A stretch of DNA of 64,000 nt, from positions 5,202 to 69,201 of the IMG/VR virus record IMGVR_UViG_3300002933_000006, one strand, 5' to 3'. The DNA is from a virus. Each line of letters opens with the position of its first letter. Positions within the stretch are counted from its first letter, which is position 1. The notes under the pieces were generated by a model. The model was given only the letters and a program-made list of their open reading frames with translations. It did not search any database and was not told where the DNA came from. Made by a program: the position numbers and the translations under genes. Below, one piece after another: positions 2,657-57,245 of the stretch.

Positions 2657-3627
2657 TCTTTGCTTAGGTCAATTGTTTTAAGTACAGGTAAGAATGTAGA
2701 TCGAAGCGTTTCTATTTGTTTATGTAATCCAGCTGTGGTAAGTTCTTCTTCTTCGTAAAATACTACATTTTGTCTACGCCAAGTTTTATAATCTTCACTA
2801 CGTATTGCTTTAGCAAATTCTCGTTGATACCATGCAACTATATCTGGCGGAGTGCCTTTGGGTAATTCGATACTCCATGCAGCATATACATTAATACCAG
2901 GAGCAACTGTGTTTAACAACGGAACATTGGGATATTGTGGCATAGTACGAGTACCAGTGAATCCAATGATTTTAACTTTACCTGCTTCTACTAAAGGTCG
3001 GGCAACAGCAATAGGCATAATACCAAACTCTGTTCCTTCCTTGCCATCAAACGATGCTACACTTGTTACAGCTGGTAACGGACCGTTAAATCTAATAGGT
3101 TTAACCATGTCGGTATTACCGTGATTCCTTATCATTAAATATTCAAATGCAGTACGATGCGCTCCTCCACCGACTGCAACATTAACAGGACGAGTAGTAG
3201 TAGCAATTAATCGAGCAAAATCAACAGGGGTATCGACATGACTTTGTGGGCTTGCTACTAAAGCTAATGGACTTTTGCCCATAGTCAACACATCAATGAA
3301 ATCATCATACTTAAACTTCTTAGTCTTTGCTTCCCAAATGTCGTTAGTAACGTATGTACTCATATGACTAGGCAAGTTAATTGTATATCCATCAGCCGGC
3401 TGTGTTAAAAAATGATTTTGGGCTATTACCGAATCGGCCCCGGGTCTATTTTCTACTACATAAACAAACTTAGGATTAGTCTTTTGTACAATACTAGCTA
3501 ACTCTCTAAATGCAATTTCGTTTCCTGCCCCGGGAGTGTTACCCACAATAACTGTAACTGTCTTTGTTGGTTCCCATGCAAATGCTAATACTGGCACTAA
3601 TAATAATACAGCTAATAATTTTTTCAT
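2653..3627 (-). CDS. Bug/TctC family tripartite tricarboxylate transporter substrate-binding protein
   Basis: Signal peptide (AFA-W); P.K.V.VIV..PGAG.E...R, VVENRPGA, PADGYTI and YPNVP motifs. Confidence 0.85.
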   Translation of the reverse strand: MKKLLAVLLLVPVLAFAWEPTKTVTVIVGNTPGAGNEIAFRELASIVQKTNPKFVYVVENRPGADSVIAQNHFLTQPADGYTINLPSHMSTYVTNDIWEAKTKKFKYDDFIDVLTMGKSPLALVASPQSHVDTPVDFARLIATTTRPVNVAVGGGAHRTAFEYLMIRNHGNTDMVKPIRFNGPLPAVTSVASFDGKEGTEFGIMPIAVARPLVEAGKVKIIGFTGTRTMPQYPNVPLLNTVAPGINVYAAWSIELPKGTPPDIVAWYQREFAKAIRSEDYKTWRRQNVVFYEEEELTTAGLHKQIETLRSTFLPVLKTIDLSKE

Positions 3628-4182: not shown

Positions 4183-4878
4183 TTACCAACCGTACGCTTC
4201 TGATACTAACTCTTTTGCTTCTGCGGTTGCTACACTATTTGCACAAGAGATATCGAACAAATCTTTACGCATAGCAGATGCTAACGCAGTTGCACGTGCT
4301 TGTGTGCTAGAGTCAACACATAGTTGTTCTAATTTAAGAGCACCGATACTAGCGTGAAATCCTTCGTCGCGAGCAATCTTAGCATAACGTGAACTGATAA
4401 ATTCATCTTCGATGCACTCGGCCATTGTGTTCCAGTTTACTTCTGCACGACCTTCGGCAATAAACTGATAAACTGCTAATGCTAGTTCGTCTGTTTCTGC
4501 TTCGTACTTGGCCAATAATGCAGCGCCTTTAGCTGTCGGTTTAGCTTGTTCTGCGGCAATAGCGGCTTCAACATCTAGTTCACTGCCAGTAATATGTTCA
4601 ACAACTTCTTTAACCATACGGAAATGAATAGCTTCATCCATTGCTTGTTTAGCTAAAAGTTGTAGTTCTTCTGGACTAGCACTTGCTGGCATACCAGCAA
4701 TACGAGCACTAATTTCACTCATATTCATACGTTCGTTGACCATACGGCCAATGAAGTGTTCTACTAGTGCGTCTTGGTTAGGATTGCTGGCAAAATATGC
4801 CTTAACATTTAATGCACCTGCTGTAAATAATGCTTGATTATCCTGCGCCAATTGGGCTACAAATTGTTTGCTATTCAT
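4183..4878 (-). CDS. Ferritin-like di-iron carboxylate protein
   Basis: Two ExxH motifs (DEAIH, DEGFH) plus candidate Glu ligands (NERMN, AEGRA) in a helical protein. Confidence 0.8.
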   Translation of the reverse strand: MNSKQFVAQLAQDNQALFTAGALNVKAYFASNPNQDALVEHFIGRMVNERMNMSEISARIAGMPASASPEELQLLAKQAMDEAIHFRMVKEVVEHITGSELDVEAAIAAEQAKPTAKGAALLAKYEAETDELALAVYQFIAEGRAEVNWNTMAECIEDEFISSRYAKIARDEGFHASIGALKLEQLCVDSSTQARATALASAMRKDLFDISCANSVATAEAKELVSEAYGW

Positions 4879-4971
4879 GTAAACTCCTTAAATATATTTA
4901 ATGAAAATACAAGAGTCCGTAAAATTTTTTACCATCTTGTAAAATTATTTATCAAATAAGAGAAAAATCAA

Positions 4972-50915: not shown

Positions 50916-51410
50916 ATGTTTTCAATATATAAGATTACTAATACAGTTAACAATAAGATCTATATAGGATTTTCGTCCAGGAACCCAATGGATAGATGGT
51001 ACAATCATCAACGATGTGCCATAAACAGTAAAAAAAATACGCATTTATATAATGCTATGAGAAAATACGGTCTTAATAATTTTCAATTTGATATTATATA
51101 TCAGTCCAATGATTGTACCCATACTCACAAAATAATGGAAAATTACTTTATTGTAGAATATCGTACTTATGTTGGCTTTCCGGACTGCAACGGTTATAAT
51201 ATGACCCTCGGCGGCGAAGGCGCAGTAGGAAGAGTAGATACTCCCGAAACTACAACAAAACGATCTACTGCAAAAATAGGTAAAAAAAGAGCGTCGATGA
51301 CATTAGAGCAAAAAGCTAAGATATCTGCATCAAAAAAGAATAAACCCTGGTCTCCAGCAAGATTAGCAATAGGATACAAAAAGAAACCCACAGAAGTGGG
51401 TTCCTGTTAG
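50916..51410 (+). CDS. GIY-YIG homing endonuclease (free-standing) with NUMOD3-like tail
   Basis: SIYKITN..NNKIYIG, R.YNH, AMRKYG, GYNMTLGGEG, EQKAKISAS. Confidence 0.9.
   Translation: MFSIYKITNTVNNKIYIGFSSRNPMDRWYNHQRCAINSKKNTHLYNAMRKYGLNNFQFDIIYQSNDCTHTHKIMENYFIVEYRTYVGFPDCNGYNMTLGGEGAVGRVDTPETTTKRSTAKIGKKRASMTLEQKAKISASKKNKPWSPARLAIGYKKKPTEVGSC
51383..51403. terminator. Hairpin between the convergent GIY-YIG gene and tmRNA
   Basis: GAAACCCAC-AGAA-GTGGGTTCC. Confidence 0.65.
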
Positions 51411-51680
51411 TTTCTGTTACGAGGTATAACTACCCTAAGCAGTTTTTAGGCTGCTAATGCGAATGTATTATCATTTGCGGTTACTTCTTATTTGCTGATT
51501 ACGTCAGTCAACTCTCGTGTTGCCTCTTTCGTTATCTCACCATGTCGAAACCGGTCGGACCCAACGAAATATACTCTGTTACATGTCACCGCTTCGCGCT
51601 TGCGGTCGAATATACTTCGGTGGATCCGGGGAGAATCGAACTCCCGTCCACAGCGCCTTCACTACGAAGGAATTACAACA
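51385..51680 (-). ncRNA. ssrA: Circularly permuted (two-piece) tmRNA, tag (A)ANDNTFALAA
   Basis: Order on the minus strand: T-arm GGGAG-TTCGATT-CTCCC and 3' acceptor CGGATCC-A (51645-51621); intervening hairpin; 5' acceptor GGGTCCG at 51562 with G3:U pair; GGTTTCGAC; tag ORF 51478-51446. Ends are approximate. Confidence 0.92.
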
Positions 51681-51696
51681 ATTCTTTACTTACCGC

Positions 51697-51945
51697 TTAT
51701 ACTGTTAAAACTAAAGCAATAACCGGAGGGGGAGAAAATGTATTAATAAATGCTATCCATTCATTCGCGGCCTCTTCGGTGGTCCAAATACGACTCGATG
51801 TTTTAGTATTTGGGTCATCTGTGCTGTTAATAAAAGTTCCATCTGTTGCTCCGGCACTAACCAATTCTGCAATTTTAGCGTCACGGATCGGTCTTTCTTC
51901 GGCAGTAAGAGATCTTGCAAACTTTACCTGAGTTGTGATTGTCAT
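51697..51945 (-). CDS. Hypothetical protein
   Basis: R.WTTEEAANEWIAF motif; AGGA RBS. Confidence 0.65.
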   Translation of the reverse strand: MTITTQVKFARSLTAEERPIRDAKIAELVSAGATDGTFINSTDDPNTKTSSRIWTTEEAANEWIAFINTFSPPPVIALVLTV

Positions 51946-52057
51946 TTTAAATAATCCTATTAGTAATTATCTAGCCAGTCTTTAAGTTCTATCATTACGT
52001 ATAATAAAACTGCTACTACAATCAGACTGGCCAGATATGTCATACAACTATTTAGCG

Positions 52058-52426
52058 TTAAACACAGCTCGGTCCGTACTTATTTTCACCTGGTGTGCTG
52101 GGGATAAACATGATAGCCAGGCTAACGACCCATCCAACATATGGTACTAGAGTTAGTAAAATCCATACACCACTTTGGTCAAAGTCACGAATACGTTGAC
52201 TACCTGCGGCCCAACTGGTTACACCAACTGCAATGAATCCTGCGAATACTGCAAAAAATAACAAATATGCCAACGGTGCAACTGTGTCTGCGAGTGCTCC
52301 TGCAACACAACCAACAATAGCCAACCCAATTAATGCACCAATTTGAGCCAACAGTAATACATTATAACTTTGGCGATTACGACGTCCACTGAACTTAAAT
52401 AAATCTTGAAATACTGGCTTACTCAT
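52058..52426 (-). CDS. DUF805 (YhaH/YhaI-like) inner-membrane protein
   Basis: FSGRRNRQSY, QRIRDFDQSG.WILL..VPYVG, PSTPGENKYGP. Confidence 0.9.
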   Translation of the reverse strand: MSKPVFQDLFKFSGRRNRQSYNVLLLAQIGALIGLAIVGCVAGALADTVAPLAYLLFFAVFAGFIAVGVTSWAAGSQRIRDFDQSGVWILLTLVPYVGWVVSLAIMFIPSTPGENKYGPSCV

Positions 52427-52447
52427 ATAATACCCCTTTAATTAAAC

Positions 52448-52763
52448 TGTTATATTGAAACATACTACAGGAAGAACCACATCGCTCAACACCACTTGTT
52501 GCTTTGCTTTCTCATTACTGCCTACTGTTATATTCCGCCGCCTCAGATTTATATTGTTGCTACCTCGGACGCGATGGTGTCTTGTCCTACTTTGCAACTA
52601 CCCCTGGTTTCATGGATTGTATACTCCCTTCATGCTTCTAGCAAGGCTAGCTCGCTAGCGAATCGGGCATTATTACAGTATACAATCCCTAACGGTATAG
52701 GTAACCTAATATGTTTCAATATAACAACGGGACTTATACGTTTCGCAACGAGTGCCCGTTATT
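52448..52763 (-). ncRNA. Candidate structured non-coding RNA of unknown class
   Basis: Perfect 17-bp closing inverted repeat (52448-52464/52710-52726), perfect 12-bp inner stem (52614-52625/52677-52688), further stems and a GCGA tetraloop hairpin; no credible ORF. Confidence 0.7.
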
Positions 52764-52767
52764 AAAA

Positions 52768-53112
52768 TTACTCTGCTACTGCGTCAAGCAATGCACGTGC
52801 TTTGATATCTTCCAATGATGGCTTAGTCTTAACTTTAGCACCTTTAGTAGATACTACGCCATTGTACTTGGCATCAGCCGCGTCGATTGCTGCTTTATAG
52901 TCAGCATTTGCATACAACTCTGATGTCTTAAGGAAAGTAACCAATGCCGGCTTGGTCATTGCTGTTGGCAACTCTAACAAATTAATGTCTGAGTCTGTTT
53001 TAGCCAAGATCTTAACACGTGTCATGTCACCAGCGAAACGTACTTTGTACTGGCCTTTAGTTTTAGAAACACCACCAACTTTGAACAATTTAGTCATTTT
53101 GTAAAACTCCAT
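52768..53112 (-). CDS. Small basic phage protein
   Basis: FKVGGVS....YKVRFA.D..RVKIL.K...DINL.ELP..MTK. Confidence 0.75.
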   Translation of the reverse strand: MEFYKMTKLFKVGGVSKTKGQYKVRFAGDMTRVKILAKTDSDINLLELPTAMTKPALVTFLKTSELYANADYKAAIDAADAKYNGVVSTKGAKVKTKPSLEDIKARALLDAVAE

Positions 53113-54461: not shown

Positions 54462-57245
54462 TTATGCTTGCATCTTTGGACGGCAACTAAACTTACCAGG
54501 ATCTTCTGCGCCAATACCACGTAAATAACTTTGTGCTGTAGCCCAGGCGCTGTGGTGGTCATGGTCGGCAAATTCGTGTACTACATGTCCGTTGTCACGT
54601 TCGTATACTTCCCACATAGGTACGCCGTTTGGTGCTGTGGCCTGCACAGGATCGCCTGCACGATATTGCACAAACGCATCATCACGACCAGTTAGTTGAT
54701 TAACATATAATCGAGCAGCACGGGCAACAAACGGGCTACTGGCACCAGTTGGTAAATAACCGTATACTCTTTCGCCAGCTTTAACTTCATAGTAATCGCC
54801 AGTAGCAGGACGTTGACTTAACATGCCTTCTGGAGGTGTATTAGTGTCTTGGTCTTGTTGCGGAGTACGATCGGCTACACGTTCTGCACTTGCATCTGTT
54901 GGAACTGTACGCATACTAACATCATAACGTTCTTGATATCTACGCTTAGTTTCTTCTGCTTGTGCTAGTGTAAGATCGGGGTGTGATGCAATAACTTGTC
55001 CTGTGGTATTGTTTATGTATTGCCAGGTACGTGGAATATCGTTTGCATCTTGCGGTGTGTCTTTTTCGTTGTGTAGTTCTAAATTAGCCACACTACCAAC
55101 ATCGTGTTGTTGTGCTACTTTAACTAATAGTTTCTGTGCTTCTTCACGACTAACATTGAATATTTGATCAATGACCCGACCAGTTGGGCGATAAACAACA
55201 TTCCAATTTGGTTTAGGTGCTTTAATACGCTTGGCTAACTTTTCACGTTGGCTTAACTCTGGTTCTGGTGCTTCCGGATCTGCCGGACGTAAATTAAACG
55301 GAATGTTTTGATCAGCATACTTGTCATATACTGCGTCAGCGGCTTCTCCCTTAGTAGCAAAGCCGTGTAGAGTTTCTAATGTTTCGCCAGTTTCGTGGTT
55401 ATACACTTCCCAATCACCCGACTCAGACTTCAATGGTCGTAGTGTATATTGTTTCTGGAAGCCTTCCATACTACCGCCAGGACTTAATCGTTTCTTAGCT
55501 TTTTCCCAAGCATCAGATTTTGTATATCCATGGAACTCTTCTCCGGCAACAGGTTTGCCATACGAATCCCATAGTTTCCAATCGCCCTTTGGTTCGTTGC
55601 TTAGTGCTTTATCGGCCCAGGACTTTTTAAGTTCTTCACTGCTGATAGCGCCTGTAGCAAAACGAGCAAATAGATCTAATGCGGGATCTCCTTCTACTGG
55701 ACTAATAAGTTTATACAACTTCTTATAATATTCTTTACGTTCTAAGTCCGGACGACTAGCTACATACATAGCCTGTGAATAACGCATTAATGTATTTTGT
55801 AGTTTAGCAATATCTTCAAAATAGTTTGTGCCGCCAGCACTACGGAACTCAATGTACTTGGCACCACGGTTCTGTGTAGGATCGCGACTTGTTTGTCCAC
55901 CTTGTGGATTAATACTTGTATATTTGCCAAATCCTTGATTATTAATTTCTAATGCTTTTTGTGCTAGTTCTAATAGATTGTGTTTCATTAAATCCAATGC
56001 ACCGGCTACAGCTTCTTTGTTGCCTTTAACACGAGTCTTAATCTTTTTCATTGCAGCTTCGCAGAAGTGATTACCACTACGGCTAAACTCTTTAAGTACA
56101 TGTTCGTCGCCTAAGAATAATGCTAACTTAACATAGTCAACATCGCCGCCTTTGCCCGGTAAACTAACGCCCATATGGAAACCAGTTGAACTGTTAGCAT
56201 AAGCACCATTATCTGCGGCCCATTTAAAAAAGTCTTTCATCATAGTAAGACATTGTTGTAACGGCATAGGAGGACTAACGATCTCCACTGGCATGTCATC
56301 CGAGTCATTGGCATCTAAACTTGAGTCTGGTTCAAAGATCCAAGTAACTGCATCACGCTTAGCCGAATGGTATCCTGAACTTACTTTAGTTCTAATACCT
56401 AAGCGTTCTGCTAAGTCGTCAGCTAATCTTTCAGCATTATGTTCACTAAAGCCGCCTTCACTACTACTACCAGTGCCAGCCATGACAGGCCACATTAAAT
56501 CAAATTTGTCTTGAACATCACTCATGTAACGTAAGCCAACGTCTGCAAAGAATCCAGAATCATCATCTATACTGTAACTGTCGCGGAATTCGTCTAATGC
56601 GTTTTGCCAATTGTCGTCGTGATCATTTATACTTTGCTCAACTTGTTCGGTAATTTCTGCTTCAGCTAAAGATTCGGCTTCTTTGTATGCTTCGTATGCT
56701 GGATGCGTAGCAATGAAATCTTGTTCTTCACTATGAGATTTAAAACGTGGTGCGTCATTGGCAGCCGCGAATGCAGCTAATACTTCTTTATCGCTATAGG
56801 TGTCTTGTAAATATTCTCTAATGAATTCTTCTTCGTCAAAGTCATCTTCAATTTTTTCACGAACGAGGTCTTGTTCTTCGTTTTCAAAGTCCTGCATCAT
56901 TTCATTGTCAAACCACTCATAGTACATTTCGTCTAATTTTTCTTGTAGGTCACGTGAGGCACGATTGCCTAATCCATAACCATACTCATCGTTTTCAAAG
57001 AAGTCGATAACCTGCTGAATACTATAAGCACGTTCATCGGCTTCCATATCGGGTTCAAAGTCTTGATCGTAATCATCAGATTCGCCCATGCCGGTAAACA
57101 CTAGTTCGGCTTCAAAGCCGGCCATAATGCCTTCTGCTTCTGGGCTACTAGCAAACTGTTGTAGTGTGCTGGGATTCATACGAAGCTCGTCTAATTGAGC
57201 TTCTTTTAATGTTCGTGTGCGTAGTTTGAATTGGTTATATCTCAT
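54462..57245 (-). CDS. Putative amidoligase (COOH-NH2 ligase type 2) with acidic insert and C-terminal repeats
   Basis: GFEAE, EPDSSL, VEIVSPP, NSSTGFHM, KYTSIN, YIEFRSAGG. Confidence 0.8.
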   Translation of the reverse strand: MRYNQFKLRTRTLKEAQLDELRMNPSTLQQFASSPEAEGIMAGFEAELVFTGMGESDDYDQDFEPDMEADERAYSIQQVIDFFENDEYGYGLGNRASRDLQEKLDEMYYEWFDNEMMQDFENEEQDLVREKIEDDFDEEEFIREYLQDTYSDKEVLAAFAAANDAPRFKSHSEEQDFIATHPAYEAYKEAESLAEAEITEQVEQSINDHDDNWQNALDEFRDSYSIDDDSGFFADVGLRYMSDVQDKFDLMWPVMAGTGSSSEGGFSEHNAERLADDLAERLGIRTKVSSGYHSAKRDAVTWIFEPDSSLDANDSDDMPVEIVSPPMPLQQCLTMMKDFFKWAADNGAYANSSTGFHMGVSLPGKGGDVDYVKLALFLGDEHVLKEFSRSGNHFCEAAMKKIKTRVKGNKEAVAGALDLMKHNLLELAQKALEINNQGFGKYTSINPQGGQTSRDPTQNRGAKYIEFRSAGGTNYFEDIAKLQNTLMRYSQAMYVASRPDLERKEYYKKLYKLISPVEGDPALDLFARFATGAISSEELKKSWADKALSNEPKGDWKLWDSYGKPVAGEEFHGYTKSDAWEKAKKRLSPGGSMEGFQKQYTLRPLKSESGDWEVYNHETGETLETLHGFATKGEAADAVYDKYADQNIPFNLRPADPEAPEPELSQREKLAKRIKAPKPNWNVVYRPTGRVIDQIFNVSREEAQKLLVKVAQQHDVGSVANLELHNEKDTPQDANDIPRTWQYINNTTGQVIASHPDLTLAQAEETKRRYQERYDVSMRTVPTDASAERVADRTPQQDQDTNTPPEGMLSQRPATGDYYEVKAGERVYGYLPTGASSPFVARAARLYVNQLTGRDDAFVQYRAGDPVQATAPNGVPMWEVYERDNGHVVHEFADHDHHSAWATAQSYLRGIGAEDPGKFSCRPKMQA

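What the first reader, a model, noticed from the sequence alone, without database searches (positions are those of the whole stretch)
52448..52763. Unassigned, highly structured RNA of about 280-320 nt near the tmRNA
Seen: a gap of about 340 nt in an otherwise gene-dense genome. TGTTATATTGAAACATA pairs perfectly with TATGTTTCAATATAACA about 245 nt away. GGATTGTATACT/AGTATACAATCC forms a perfect inner 12-bp stem. AGGACAAGACACCATCGC pairs imperfectly with GCGATGTGGTTCTTCCT around a purine-rich domain. An upstream hairpin has a GCGA (GNRA) tetraloop and a U:G pair that work only on the minus strand. I do not recognise it as a tRNA, riboswitch, intron or RNase P RNA. Inference: a processed multi-stem phage ncRNA, possibly a protein sponge, antitoxin mimic or ribozyme.
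Basis: partly seen in the sequence, partly recalled or inferred. Interest (0 to 1): 0.72.

Follow-up and report, generated by a model that had tools for sequence, protein, structure and literature searches.

The report
Uncatalogued folded RNA of giant phages
The gap holds a real gene for a tightly folded non-coding RNA from an uncatalogued family that more than a hundred uncultured giant freshwater phages carry, usually beside their tRNA genes; what the RNA does is still unknown.

Summary
Window 52448-52726 (minus strand, 279 nt) is closed by a 20-bp stem and contains the 12-bp inner stem.

It is one member of a conserved structured-RNA family. A profile built from 58 other copies, with the window left out, hits the window once (E 1.7e-18).

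Covariation is strong. In the family structure 87% of cells pair, against 39-43% in slid controls, and 56 of 73 pairs change on both sides.

The strand is set by three results:
- G-U outnumbers A-C 469 to 88.
- tRNA neighbours lie only on the same strand.
- Sigma-70-type promoters sit upstream of 17 of 84 copies.

Rfam 15 has no match. Isolated phages have none, nor do 185,579 prokaryote species genomes.

The gene is accessory: 3 of 3 near-complete close relatives lack it.

My best reading is a stable, trans-acting RNA cut out of stable-RNA transcripts through its closing stem. Its target is unknown. This scan reported the same family before on other genomes.

The parts
52448..52726 (-). Gene of the structured RNA (279 nt), from the outer end of the closing stem P1 to its other outer end
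   Evidence: The profile of 58 other family members (window left out) aligns 52726-52451 to profile positions 3-219 of 222, E 1.7e-18, and this is the only hit in the window. The inverted repeat bounds it. Homology of relatives that lack the RNA stops at 52721-52729.
52705..52726 (-). P1, 5' strand (closing stem)
   Evidence: It pairs with 52448-52471: 18 bp plus 4 bp, with a 2-nt bulge. In the family, helix 1 has 16 of 18 pairs with changes on both sides and 91% of cells paired.
52448..52471 (-). P1, 3' strand
52688..52706 (-). Most conserved block, GGUUACCUAUACCGUUAGG. It holds the 5' strands of P2 (52697-52701) and P2b (52691-52695).
   Evidence: 16 of its 19 positions are invariant in 59 sequences. 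As a pattern it recovered the family from viral contigs.
52521..52525 (-). P2, 3' strand (GUAGG), pairs with CCUAU at 52697-52701
   Evidence: Family helix 3: 97.7% of cells paired, 3 of 6 pairs with changes on both sides (CCUACA/UGUAGG, CCUGA/UCAGG, CCUAG/CUAGG, CCUAUA/UAUAGG).
52535..52539 (-). P2b, 3' strand (GGCGG, inside the conserved GGCGGCGGA at 52534-52542), pairs with CCGUU at 52691-52695
   Evidence: Family helix 4: 98.9% of cells paired. One pair alternates U-G and U-A (34 and 23 sequences).
52614..52688 (-). P3 arm: 12-bp stem 52677-52688 / 52614-52625, with a distal extension that is longer than in most members
   Evidence: Perfect 12-bp repeat. The base of P3 covaries in the family: helix 5 has 5 of 6 pairs changed on both sides. 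Fold.
52607..52614 (-). Conserved junction CAUGAAAC between P3 and P4
   Evidence: A, G, A, A are invariant columns in 59 sequences. Coordinates.
52556..52606 (-). P4 arm, long form ('type B'), with the loop block GACACCAUCGC at 52571-52581
   Evidence: Fold. The same long arm with GACACCAUC is present in L012, L070, L077, L078, L087, L130 and L162. The base of P4 covaries: helix 10, 4 of 4 pairs.
52512..52525 (-). Conserved GUAGGCAGUAAUGA (P2 3' strand plus the junction to the 3' domain)
   Evidence: GG, G, U, A, U, G, A are invariant columns. Coordinates.
52472..52511 (-). 3' domain (short 'type B' form), with GUGGUGUU at 52488-52495. This block can pair with the P4 loop ACACCAU as a candidate kissing contact.
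Evidence: Coordinates. The core 5 bp never vary among type B members, so the contact is neither supported nor contradicted by covariation.
52727..52759 (-). 3' hairpin of the upstream 114-aa gene (GCGA loop). It abuts the RNA but is not part of the family.
   Evidence: It is conserved in L002, L004-L006, L005, L007 and others that lack the RNA, and its inner stem shows a compensatory change. The terminator scan did not flag it.
52768..53112 (-). Upstream gene: 114-aa protein of no known family, conserved in 53 viral loci
52058..52426 (-). Downstream gene: DUF805 membrane protein
   Evidence: Pfam PF05656, E 2.1e-21. It is missing or cut in relatives.
51355..51722 (-). Two-piece (permuted) tmRNA gene, same strand, about 740 nt downstream of the RNA
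   Evidence: Rfam beta_tmRNA 169.3 bits and tmRNA_permuted 123.8 bits. ARAGORN reports the tag ANDNTFALAA.

Best explanation
Window 52448-52726 (minus strand) is a gene for a stable, compactly folded non-coding RNA. It belongs to a family that Rfam does not list and that is so far seen only in uncultured huge freshwater phages.

Shown:
- Family membership.
- A covariation-supported architecture. A closing stem of about 22 bp (P1) joins the two ends. A long-range helix P2/P2b opens into a three-way junction carrying arms P3 and P4. A separate 3' arm follows. The near-invariant nucleotides cluster at the two junctions.
- The coding strand.
- The usual place of the gene: on the same strand as tRNA genes, often 0-15 nt in front of one, or behind a sigma-70-type promoter of its own.

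Inferred:
- The RNA is transcribed with the neighbouring stable-RNA or early genes. In this window that means with the 114-aa gene, reading on towards DUF805 and the tmRNA.
- It is released by host nucleases: RNase III on the two-turn P1 stalk, and RNase P at the 5' end of a following tRNA where there is one.
- It then acts in trans during infection. Its conserved junction core would bind a protein or RNA of the host's tRNA or translation apparatus. The peripheral arms would only brace the core; in this type B copy they would do so through a P4-loop / 3'-loop kissing contact.

My odds:
- Real RNA gene of this family: about 0.95.
- Excised trans-acting stable RNA rather than a cis element: about 0.6.
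- Target in tRNA or translation biology: about 0.35.
For: - Membership: the leave-window-out profile hits the window once, at E 1.7e-18 over 217 of 222 profile positions.
Of these, 117 also match the whole-RNA profile, which was built from 58 of them. There are 91 distinct sequences.
- Structure: RNAalifold finds 32 of 44 pairs with changes on both sides.
- On a 73-pair structure, 87.1% of cells pair against 39.4-43.2% in six slid controls. 56 pairs change on both sides against 31-38 in the controls. The covariation score is 0.409 against 0.067-0.092. None of 500 shuffles reaches any of the five measures.
- Six members folded singly give the same architecture.
- Strand: 469 G-U against 88 A-C cells.
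- None of 79 copies has a tRNA on the other strand.
- 17 of 84 copies have TTGACW-N16-18-TAnnnT ending about 10 nt before P1.
- Context: of 79 distinct full-length copies, 33 have a tRNA gene starting within 15 nt downstream, 48 within 200 nt, and 51 have a tRNA or tmRNA within 1.5 kb. The next tRNA is Glu 13 times, Asp 11, Leu 4, Ser 3 and Tyr 2.
- Not coding: the median longest open stretch is 32 codons, and lengths fall in all three classes modulo 3.
- P1 is about two helical turns: 18 + 5 pairs in the family and 18 + 4 here. From established knowledge of bacterial RNase III, that is the size of its substrates, such as the rRNA processing stalks.
- Subtypes keep the same junction core but differ in their peripheral arms.
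Against: - There is no direct evidence of a transcript, its ends or its abundance.
- The window copy has no recognisable promoter of its own. It sits behind a hairpin that could stop transcription.
- The RNA is dispensable on evolutionary time. None of 5 records of close relatives holds the motif, and 3 of those are 97-100% complete.
- L004 and L006 have lost it together with the 5' part of DUF805.
- One pond contig keeps only the outer P1 arms, around 22 unrelated letters.
- No protein gene recurs beside it, so there is no hint of a partner.
- 28 of 79 copies have no tRNA within 1.5 kb, which makes the tRNA link loose.
- How the 3' end forms in the promoter-driven copies is unexplained; no terminator follows P1.
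- The kissing contact never varies in type B. The analogous loop-loop pairing in type A is only weakly suggested.
Confidence: 0.6

Rival explanations
1. It is a cis-acting operon leader. The RNA would stay on the nascent transcript and control what follows it. It might make RNA polymerase resistant to termination across long untranslated tRNA arrays, or sense a ligand, or guide processing of the tRNAs or tmRNA behind it.
For: It is always on the same strand as the following tRNAs, and it abuts one within 15 nt in 33 of 79 copies. Many copies sit directly behind promoters (17 of 84 with a consensus sigma-70 type) and have tRNAs only downstream. In the window it lies upstream of DUF805 and the tmRNA on the same strand.
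Against: - What lies downstream is not constant. It may be tRNA-Glu, Asp, Leu, Ser or Tyr, small unrelated ORFs that have their own promoters, or DUF805 here.
- No alternative terminator/antiterminator pairing is visible, and P1 encloses the whole element.
- Where a tRNA follows at 0-15 nt, RNase P cleavage would cut the tether at once (inference from established RNase P function).
- Two copies stand in tandem in L168.
Confidence: 0.15
2. It is a catalytic or ligand-binding RNA, that is, a new ribozyme or a trans-acting aptamer. The invariant junction nucleotides would form an active site or pocket, and the interchangeable peripheral arms would only stabilise it.
For: Near-invariant unpaired nucleotides concentrate at two multi-helix junctions, while the helices covary freely. 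Two subtypes keep the core but use different peripheral arms and different candidate loop-loop contacts. By recalled analogy, large ribozymes show this pattern.
Against: No Rfam ribozyme or riboswitch model matches even at E up to 10. No substrate or cleavage site can be named. It is not placed where a self-cleaver or an intron would be needed, since it is intergenic and interrupts no gene. Conserved junctions fit protein binding equally well.
Confidence: 0.1
3. It is a DNA-level mobile element, a MITE-like insertion with terminal inverted repeats. The RNA-like fold would be incidental.
For: 20-bp terminal inverted repeats. Presence or absence in relatives falls exactly at the repeat's outer edge. 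One strain has the body missing but the arm ends kept. Close relatives lack it altogether.
Against: - There is one copy in the window and its contig, and one copy in 4 of 5 complete genomes.
- The arms differ completely in sequence between clades yet keep pairing, including 469 G-U pairs that only work on one strand. That is the opposite of transposase-recognised ends.
- The interior, not the ends, is the conserved part.
- No flanking target duplication is visible in the sequence.
- No match was found in 185,579 prokaryote genomes.
Confidence: 0.03
4. It is a chance cluster of hairpins or terminators in an intergenic spacer, with no function of its own.
For: AT-rich phage spacers often fold well, and both strands have similar z-scores.
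Against: Profile match with the window left out at E 1.7e-18. Covariation far above the slid and shuffled controls. Conservation across 91 distinct sequences.
Confidence: 0.01

Closest known systems
Phage T4 small stable RNAs rnaC (species 1, 139 nt) and rnaD (species 2, 119 nt), annotated at the end of the T4 tRNA cluster (record AF158101.6)
   Same: They are phage-encoded stable RNAs that are neither tRNA nor mRNA. They lie on the same strand as, and directly beside, the phage's tRNA genes (for T4; for this family). Recalled, not from a call: their function is still unknown and they mature with the tRNAs.
   Different: There is no sequence or profile similarity. Searching the T4 region with filters off gave only a 0.1-bit hit elsewhere, and none of the family's core motifs occurs in rnaC. 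GGUUCC occurs once in rnaD. This RNA is about twice as long and has a long closing stem. The window copy stands beside a tmRNA gene, not tRNAs.
GOLLD and ROOL RNAs (large ornate RNAs of phages and prophages)
   Same: They are encoded in phages and prophages, 'often near tRNA islands', have an ornate covariation-supported structure and no known function. No protein partner has been identified for ROOL (passages of PMC12286853 read). That is the same kind of genomic setting as this family.
   Different: Rfam 15 holds these families, and no model matched the window copy at E up to 10 or eight other copies at E up to 1. ROOL and GOLLD are much larger; the paper says many GOLLD RNAs exceed 800 nt, against 197-301 nt here. 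They form multimeric cages, and nothing here tests that.
The same uncatalogued family as reported earlier in this scan on other genomes (e1-5322397, e1-5322417)
   Same: A typical member (L075) shares 50 of 68 short words with those stretches. The earlier descriptions agree on five points: about 215-230 nt, a 22-bp AU-rich closing stem, giant freshwater phages, a position at the head of tRNA operons or as a stand-alone early gene, and one copy per genome.
   Different: - The window copy is a divergent, longer member: 279 nt, with an expanded P3 and the long type B P4 arm.
- It has a different P1 sequence.
- It has no tRNA within 1.5 kb.
- It sits at a site where relatives carry other RNA modules or nothing.

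Membership tests
   nhmmer with the profile of 58 other members gives one hit in the 64-kb window: 52726-52451(-), E 1.7e-18, 61.2 bits, profile positions 3-219 of 222.
Uncatalogued huge-phage structured RNA family | The conserved blocks GGUUACCU-N3-CCGUUAGG, CAUGAAR, GYGRCGG, GUAGG and GUAAUGA, in this order | tested here: met
   All are present in order at 52688-52706, 52607-52614, 52534-52542 and 52512-52525. They correspond to the invariant columns.
Uncatalogued huge-phage structured RNA family | The consensus helices P1, P2, P2b, P3 and P4 can form in the candidate | tested here: met
   P1 has 18+4 bp, P2 5 bp (one U-G), P2b 5 bp, P3 12 bp, and the P4 arm forms. The fold constrained to P2 and P2b costs 5.9 kcal/mol over the free fold (-92.1 against -98.0).
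Uncatalogued huge-phage structured RNA family | Setting: same strand as adjacent tRNA genes, or behind its own promoter | tested here: inconclusive
   The window has no tRNA gene, and the scan found no sigma-70-type promoter in front of the RNA. A tmRNA gene lies 742 nt downstream on the same strand. 28 of 79 other copies also lack a tRNA within 1.5 kb.
T4 rnaC / rnaD stable RNAs | Sequence similarity to rnaC or rnaD | tested here: not met
   nhmmer --max on T4 69000-75000 gave only a 0.1-bit hit (E 0.78) outside both RNAs. The core motifs are absent, except GGUUCC once in rnaD.
GOLLD / ROOL large ornate phage RNAs | Match to the Rfam covariance model | tested here: not met
   No match in the window at the gathering score, in 52300-52900 at E up to 10, in 15 related loci at the gathering score, or in 8 copy-bearing loci at E up to 1.
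GOLLD / ROOL large ornate phage RNAs | Homo-oligomeric cage formation | not testable with these tools
   This needs cryo-EM or native gels. The property is taken from passages of PMC12286853.
MITE-like mobile element with terminal inverted repeats | Several copies with ends conserved in sequence, plus a target-site duplication | tested here: not met
   It is single-copy. The ends covary instead of being conserved. No duplication flanks 52448-52726 (read).
Riboswitch / cis-regulatory leader | A constant downstream gene class and an expression platform (alternative terminator or sequestered ribosome-binding site) | tested here: not met
   Downstream elements vary: five tRNA identities, unrelated small ORFs with their own promoters, and DUF805 here. 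No terminator-like site lies between the RNA and DUF805.
Known self-cleaving ribozyme classes, RNase P RNA, group I/II introns, 6S, Y RNA (as held in Rfam 15) | Match to the family's covariance model | tested here: not met
   There are no matches other than two chance-level ones: mir-960 at E 2.1 and RMST_3 at E 4.9.

The most novel reading that the evidence does not exclude
The family is a new class of functional RNA core, either a ribozyme or a trans-acting ligand or tRNA-binding RNA. Giant phages would use it to remodel the host's tRNA or translation system. The invariant nucleotides of the two junctions would form the active pocket. Subtypes A and B would be alternative peripheral scaffolds for the same core, much as large ribozymes have structural subtypes.
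Probability: 0.12. Interest if true: 0.85.

Novelty: new variant of a known kind. Interest (0 to 1): 0.62.

Why it matters
Giant phages carry large tRNA and tmRNA gene sets, and why they do is debated. This RNA is a conserved, elaborately folded companion of those genes, and no catalogue lists it. It is as conserved at its junctions as riboswitches and ribozymes are.

At about 220-280 nt it is small enough for chemical probing, crystallography or cryo-EM. It therefore offers a tractable way into the old question of what the non-tRNA stable RNAs of phage tRNA clusters do. That question has been open since the T4 species 1 and 2 RNAs and covers GOLLD and ROOL too.

The window also shows that such RNAs behave as exchangeable modules. 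At the same site behind one conserved gene, relatives carry this RNA, a different structured RNA, or nothing.

Tried and rejected
- Rfam: only the tmRNA passes the gathering score in the window. At E up to 10 on 52300-52900 there are two chance-level matches. Nothing lies over the RNA in 8 other loci, in 15 loci at the gathering score, or in L012 3300-4300.
- Isolated phages (INPHARED): blastn found no match for the window copy, for the 6-kb surroundings (megablast), or for a typical member. A bare 19-nt core match would fall below those E-value limits, so distant copies in isolates are not excluded.
- Prokaryote genomes: the motif scan gave 51 stretches. Fourteen gave profile matches at E up to 0.01, and these covered little more than the motif itself. 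The longest, L179, lacks the other blocks. So 0 of 51 are members. Sixteen specified bases are expected by chance at about this rate.
I used an nhmmer profile and the count of structure pairs instead, so no Infernal scores or R-scape statistics exist.
- Expression: no RNA holder was listed among 21 runs.
- The run X20 is labelled RNA-Seq but is flagged 'probably DNA'. Its contigs lie on the tmRNA, part of DUF805 and the 114-aa gene, with no cover over 52260-52707. Nothing can be concluded from this.
- T4 rnaC/rnaD homology is rejected.
- A small ORF is rejected.
- A multi-copy mobile element is rejected.
- A recurrent protein neighbour: in 23 copies without tRNAs, the flanking ORFs fall into many small unrelated clusters, the largest with 5 members.
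- Loop-loop covariation in type A: the P3 loop is GCCG or GACG with P6 loop GACGK, switching to GGCA with GAUGCG in L079 and L161. This is suggestive, but the third base pair is not consistently kept, so it is left as a hint.
- Papers: five searches and term look-ups in PMC10690425 and in preprint 10.64898/2026.10.21.760802 turned up no description of this RNA.
- The supplementary tables of PMC10690425 list 8,495 candidate structured RNAs from the same viral collection. They could not be opened and may include this RNA.
Full report
**1. Setting**

The window is part of a 69-kb viral contig that is estimated to be 19% complete, which points to a phage of several hundred kb. Nearly all ORFs run on the minus strand. 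They include a clamp loader, a DNA ligase and tail proteins. The flagged stretch is the 341-nt gap 52427-52767. It lies between a 114-aa ORF of no known family (52768-53112) and a DUF805 membrane-protein ORF (52058-52426). A two-piece tmRNA gene of the betaproteobacterial type follows at 51355-51722 on the same strand. The window has no tRNA gene.

**2. The observation**

The inverted repeats are as described. The arms 52448-52467 and 52707-52726 are 20 nt long, 95% complementary and 239 nt apart. The inner stem 52614-52625 / 52677-52688 is 12 bp and perfect. The arm sequence occurs nowhere else in the window; the only other match has 3 mismatches, and 11 of 100 shuffles give as many matches. 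Either strand folds better than all 100 shuffles (z -3.47 and -4.11). Folding energy therefore says the stretch is unusual but does not choose a strand. No Rfam family matches apart from the tmRNA. At E up to 10 only two chance-level matches appear.

**3. Relatives at the same site**

The 114-aa protein recovered 53 related viral loci. DNA comparison showed that their homology with the window runs through the 114-aa gene and its 3' hairpin and then stops at window 52721-52729. That is the outer edge of the repeat.

- In L004 and L006 the hairpin is joined directly to the middle of DUF805 (window 52214). The RNA and the first 71 codons of DUF805 are missing there.
- In L002, L003, L005 and L007 a different conserved non-coding block follows the hairpin.
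- Only L012, L013, L014 and L016 carry a diverged homologue of the flagged element at this position.

In L002 and L004 its inner stem and loop change in a compensatory way, to a GUGA loop.

**4. A large family**

Aligning the window with L012 and L016 exposed a conserved block. Many lie on contigs of 200-520 kb.

The rows used for the alignment were chosen as follows:
- The 175 loci then held contained 123 motif occurrences in 83 distinct segments.
- My script could delimit 61 of 84 segments, counting the window.
- The 23 failures were copies cut by contig ends, copies with divergent ends, one evident chance match in coding-like sequence (L143), and the window itself, which I delimited by hand.
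- Alignment A1 holds the window plus 58 of the 61. I left out L106, L153 and L156 because they have long insertions.

A profile of A1 finds 123 matches in 122 of 176 sources: the window, 4 of the 57 loci found through proteins, and 117 of the 118 motif loci. The 59 training rows match by construction. L168 holds two tandem copies. There are 91 distinct sequences.

The independent test is the profile rebuilt without the window. It hits the window once, at 52726-52451 on the minus strand, with E 1.7e-18 and 61.2 bits, over profile positions 3-219 of 222.

**5. Structure and covariation**

RNAalifold on A1 predicts 44 pairs, and 32 of them have changes on both sides. Single-sequence folds of six members (L075, L016, L070, L066, L059, L133) each return the same architecture:

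- a closing stem P1 of about 22 bp;
- a helix P2 continued by P2b across a 4-nt bulge;
- a three-way junction bearing the arms P3 and P4;
- a separate 3' arm (P5/P6).

I projected the L075 fold onto A1 as 73 pairs and counted:

| Measure | Family structure | Six slid controls |
|---|---|---|
| Cells forming standard pairs | 87.1% | 39.4-43.2% |
| Pairs with changes on both sides | 56 | 31-38 |
| Covariation score | 0.409 | 0.067-0.092 |

None of 500 shuffles reaches any of the five measures. The structure was derived from one of the aligned sequences, which favours it somewhat against the slid versions. The margin is still very large. P1 changes on both sides in 16 of 18 pairs. The arms are wholly different in sequence between clades and yet still pair. 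That is what an RNA helix does and what transposon ends do not do.

The near-invariant nucleotides lie in or next to the two junctions:
- GGUUACCU..CCGUUAGG
- CAUGAAR
- GYGRCGG
- GUAGG.AGUAAUGA
- UUCC

**6. Strand and expression signals**

Over the 73 pairs there are 469 G-U cells against 88 A-C cells. The RNA is therefore read from the strand that carries the motif, which is the window's minus strand and the strand of its genes. None of 79 distinct full-length copies has a tRNA gene on the opposite strand. Seventeen of 84 copies with enough upstream sequence have a near-consensus TTGACW-N16-18-TAnnnT promoter ending about 10 nt before P1. There the primary transcript would start at or just before P1. 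The family is not coding: the median longest open stretch on the sense strand is 32 codons, and lengths fall in all three classes modulo 3.

**7. Genomic context**

The tRNA neighbours of the 79 distinct full-length copies that have at least 300 nt downstream are as follows:

| Feature | Copies of 79 |
|---|---|
| Same-strand tRNA gene starting within 15 nt | 33 |
| Same-strand tRNA gene within 200 nt | 48 |
| tRNA or tmRNA within 1.5 kb | 51 |

For the 33 close neighbours, the following tRNA is Glu 13 times, Asp 11, Leu 4, Ser 3 and Tyr 2. The remaining 28 copies lie among small unrelated ORFs, each with its own promoter, and no recurrent neighbour appears.

Four of five complete genomes that carry the RNA have one copy. 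The 524-kb record has two, on opposite strands. None of five records of the window's closer relatives holds the motif even with one mismatch, and three of those are 97-100% complete.

A pond-metagenome contig related to the window (X7, record 21) joins 52460 to 52715 through 22 unrelated letters. It keeps only the outer ends of P1. Another contig (X4, record 10) spans 51664-52915 with the RNA in place.

Together with L004 and L006, this shows that the RNA is an accessory module that is gained, replaced and lost. At the site behind the 114-aa gene, relatives carry this RNA in one of two subtypes (L016 type A; the window and L012 type B), or a different RNA, or nothing.

**8. The window copy**

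It is a long (279 nt) and divergent member. All conserved blocks are present in order. P1 has 18 + 4 bp. P2 is CCUAU/GUAGG with one U-G pair. P2b is CCGUU/GGCGG, separated from P2 by a 9-nt rather than a 4-nt bulge. P3 is the perfect 12-bp stem with a long distal extension. P4 is the long form.

Forcing P2 and P2b costs 5.9 kcal/mol relative to the free fold (-92.1 against -98.0 kcal/mol). The free fold of this one sequence misses these helices; the family evidence puts them in.

The window shares several features with L012, L070, L077, L078, L087, L130 and L162. These are the long P4 arm, whose loop holds ACACCA, and a short 3' hairpin whose loop holds UGGUG (rows). These loops can form 5 bp in those members and 7 bp in the window and L012. 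The five core pairs never vary, so covariation is silent on this contact. L126 lacks both loop blocks, which fits co-dependence but is a single case.

It is particular to this sequence.

In type A the P3 and P6 loops (GCCG or GACG with GACGK) switch together to GGCA with GAUGCG in L079 and L161. This hints at a loop-loop contact, but the third pair is not consistently kept.

**9. What it most likely does**

Shown: it is a real RNA gene of a conserved family, with a defined fold, a defined strand and a stable-RNA or early-gene setting.

Inferred:
- *Release.* P1 is two helical turns of duplex that bring both ends together. From established knowledge, that is the substrate form of bacterial RNase III, as in the stalks that flank rRNAs. 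Where a tRNA starts 0-15 nt behind P1, RNase P would free the 3' side.
- *Action.* A core of invariant junction nucleotides braced by exchangeable arms fits an RNA that presents one specific surface to a partner. I take that partner to be a protein or RNA of the tRNA or translation apparatus, because of the company the gene keeps. This last step is the weakest; I put it at about 0.35.

Against any essential role, close relatives do without the RNA. The window copy has no promoter of its own that the scan recognises, and the scan does not call the upstream hairpin a terminator. I therefore assume co-transcription with the 114-aa gene.

**10. Rivals**

- *Cis-acting leader*, for example protection of long untranslated tRNA transcripts from termination. 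It fits the same-strand adjacency and the position behind promoters. It does not fit the variety of downstream elements, the tandem pair in L168, or the immediate RNase P site.
- *Ribozyme or aptamer.* It fits the conservation pattern, but there is no model match and no identifiable substrate.
- *MITE-like DNA element.* It fits the presence/absence pattern, but copy number, covarying ends and G-U asymmetry contradict it.

**11. Comparison with what is known**

By setting, the closest are the T4 stable RNAs rnaC and rnaD, which are annotated beside the T4 tRNA genes. There is no sequence relationship. GOLLD and ROOL are phage and prophage RNAs 'often near tRNA islands' with unknown function (passages of PMC12286853). 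Their Rfam models do not match, and they are far larger.

I found no description of this family in:
- Rfam 15;
- the isolated-phage collection;
- 185,579 prokaryote species genomes;
- five paper searches.

One caveat: PMC10690425 predicted 8,495 candidate structured RNAs from the same viral collection (passages read). Its supplementary tables, which I could not open, may list this one without a name.

This scan itself reported the same family earlier on two other genomes (e1-5322397 and e1-5322417). I reached the family, its tRNA context and the T4 comparison before that look-up. The earlier summaries agree with mine.

**12. Verdict**

- The interpretation as a novel structured phage ncRNA is supported.
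- The family is new to the catalogues. It belongs to a known kind: stable structured RNAs of phage tRNA islands with unknown function.

Noticed in passing
L012:3733-3958 (also L009, L017, L077, L095, L097, L113, L119 and others); not present in the window: A second conserved non-coding block of about 225 nt ('RNA2', ending ...ACCACCGGGGTTCGCAGAGCATT). blastn finds it in 49 of the held loci, and in 15 with at least 80% coverage (8 distinct sequences). 11 of 48 RNAalifold pairs change on both sides. There is no Rfam match. In L097, L119 and L160 its 3' end runs straight into P1 of the RNA studied here.
   Followed up: partly
L012:3967-4112; L002:~3388-3545; L003, L005, L007, L016: A third conserved non-coding block of about 145 nt ('RNA3'), closed by AAGTRTTTGAG...CTCAAAYACTT. 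It is in 34 loci, and in 17 with at least 80% coverage (10 distinct sequences). 13 of 43 predicted pairs change on both sides, and there is no Rfam match. In L002, L003, L005 and L007 it occupies the very site behind the 114-aa gene's hairpin where the window has the flagged RNA.
   Followed up: partly
window 51355-51722 (-); L002:3811-4908: The phage carries a two-piece (permuted) tmRNA of the betaproteobacterial type with tag ANDNTFALAA. In the relative L002 the tmRNA homology is split. Window 51633-51690 matches L002 3811-3868, while the rest matches around 4466-4908. An open reading frame starts in the intervening sequence. This may be an intron or a homing-endonuclease insertion in a tmRNA gene.
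   Followed up: no
window 52058-52426 (-); L004:3388-3634; L055, L056: The DUF805 membrane-protein gene is patchy. It is intact here and in L055 and L056 (75% identity, different upstream sequence). Only its last 51 codons remain in L004 and L006, fused to the upstream hairpin. It is absent from most relatives.
   Followed up: partly
window 52395-52460 and 52715-52915 (run X7, record 21): In a pond-metagenome contig at about 87-90% identity the RNA body (254 nt) is replaced by 22 unrelated letters, while the outer 11-13 nt of each P1 arm remain. DUF805 is skipped as well, at a joint from 51995 to 52395. It looks like a deletion remnant of the module.
   Followed up: partly
window 52768-53112 (-): A 114-aa lysine- and alanine-rich protein is conserved in 53 viral loci (36-90% identity) and has no Pfam or PHROG family. 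In this phage group it marks the start of the stable-RNA island.
   Followed up: no
G010 (record of L112): C1:121727-121745(-) and C1:422482-422500(+): The 524,565-bp record holds two copies of the RNA motif, on opposite strands about 300 kb apart. Four other complete genomes hold one copy each. This may be two genome copies joined in assembly rather than a true duplication.
   Followed up: no
window 54462-57245 (-): A 927-aa protein carries a putative amidoligase domain (PF12224, E 2.7e-8, residues 268-360) and nothing else recognisable.
   Followed up: no
L061, L063, L064, L075, L080, L129, L168 and others, 30-60 nt upstream of P1: In tRNA-array copies the RNA is preceded by an AT-rich motif (TCTTTAAAAAGT..., then TGTAGTA or CATATAG) and a short GC hairpin that abuts P1. 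The last letters of P1's 3' strand (...TTTTAATATAG or TTTTCATATAG) repeat the CATATAG-like motif just before the next tRNA (rows). These may be phage-specific promoters or processing signals; I did not analyse them.
   Followed up: no
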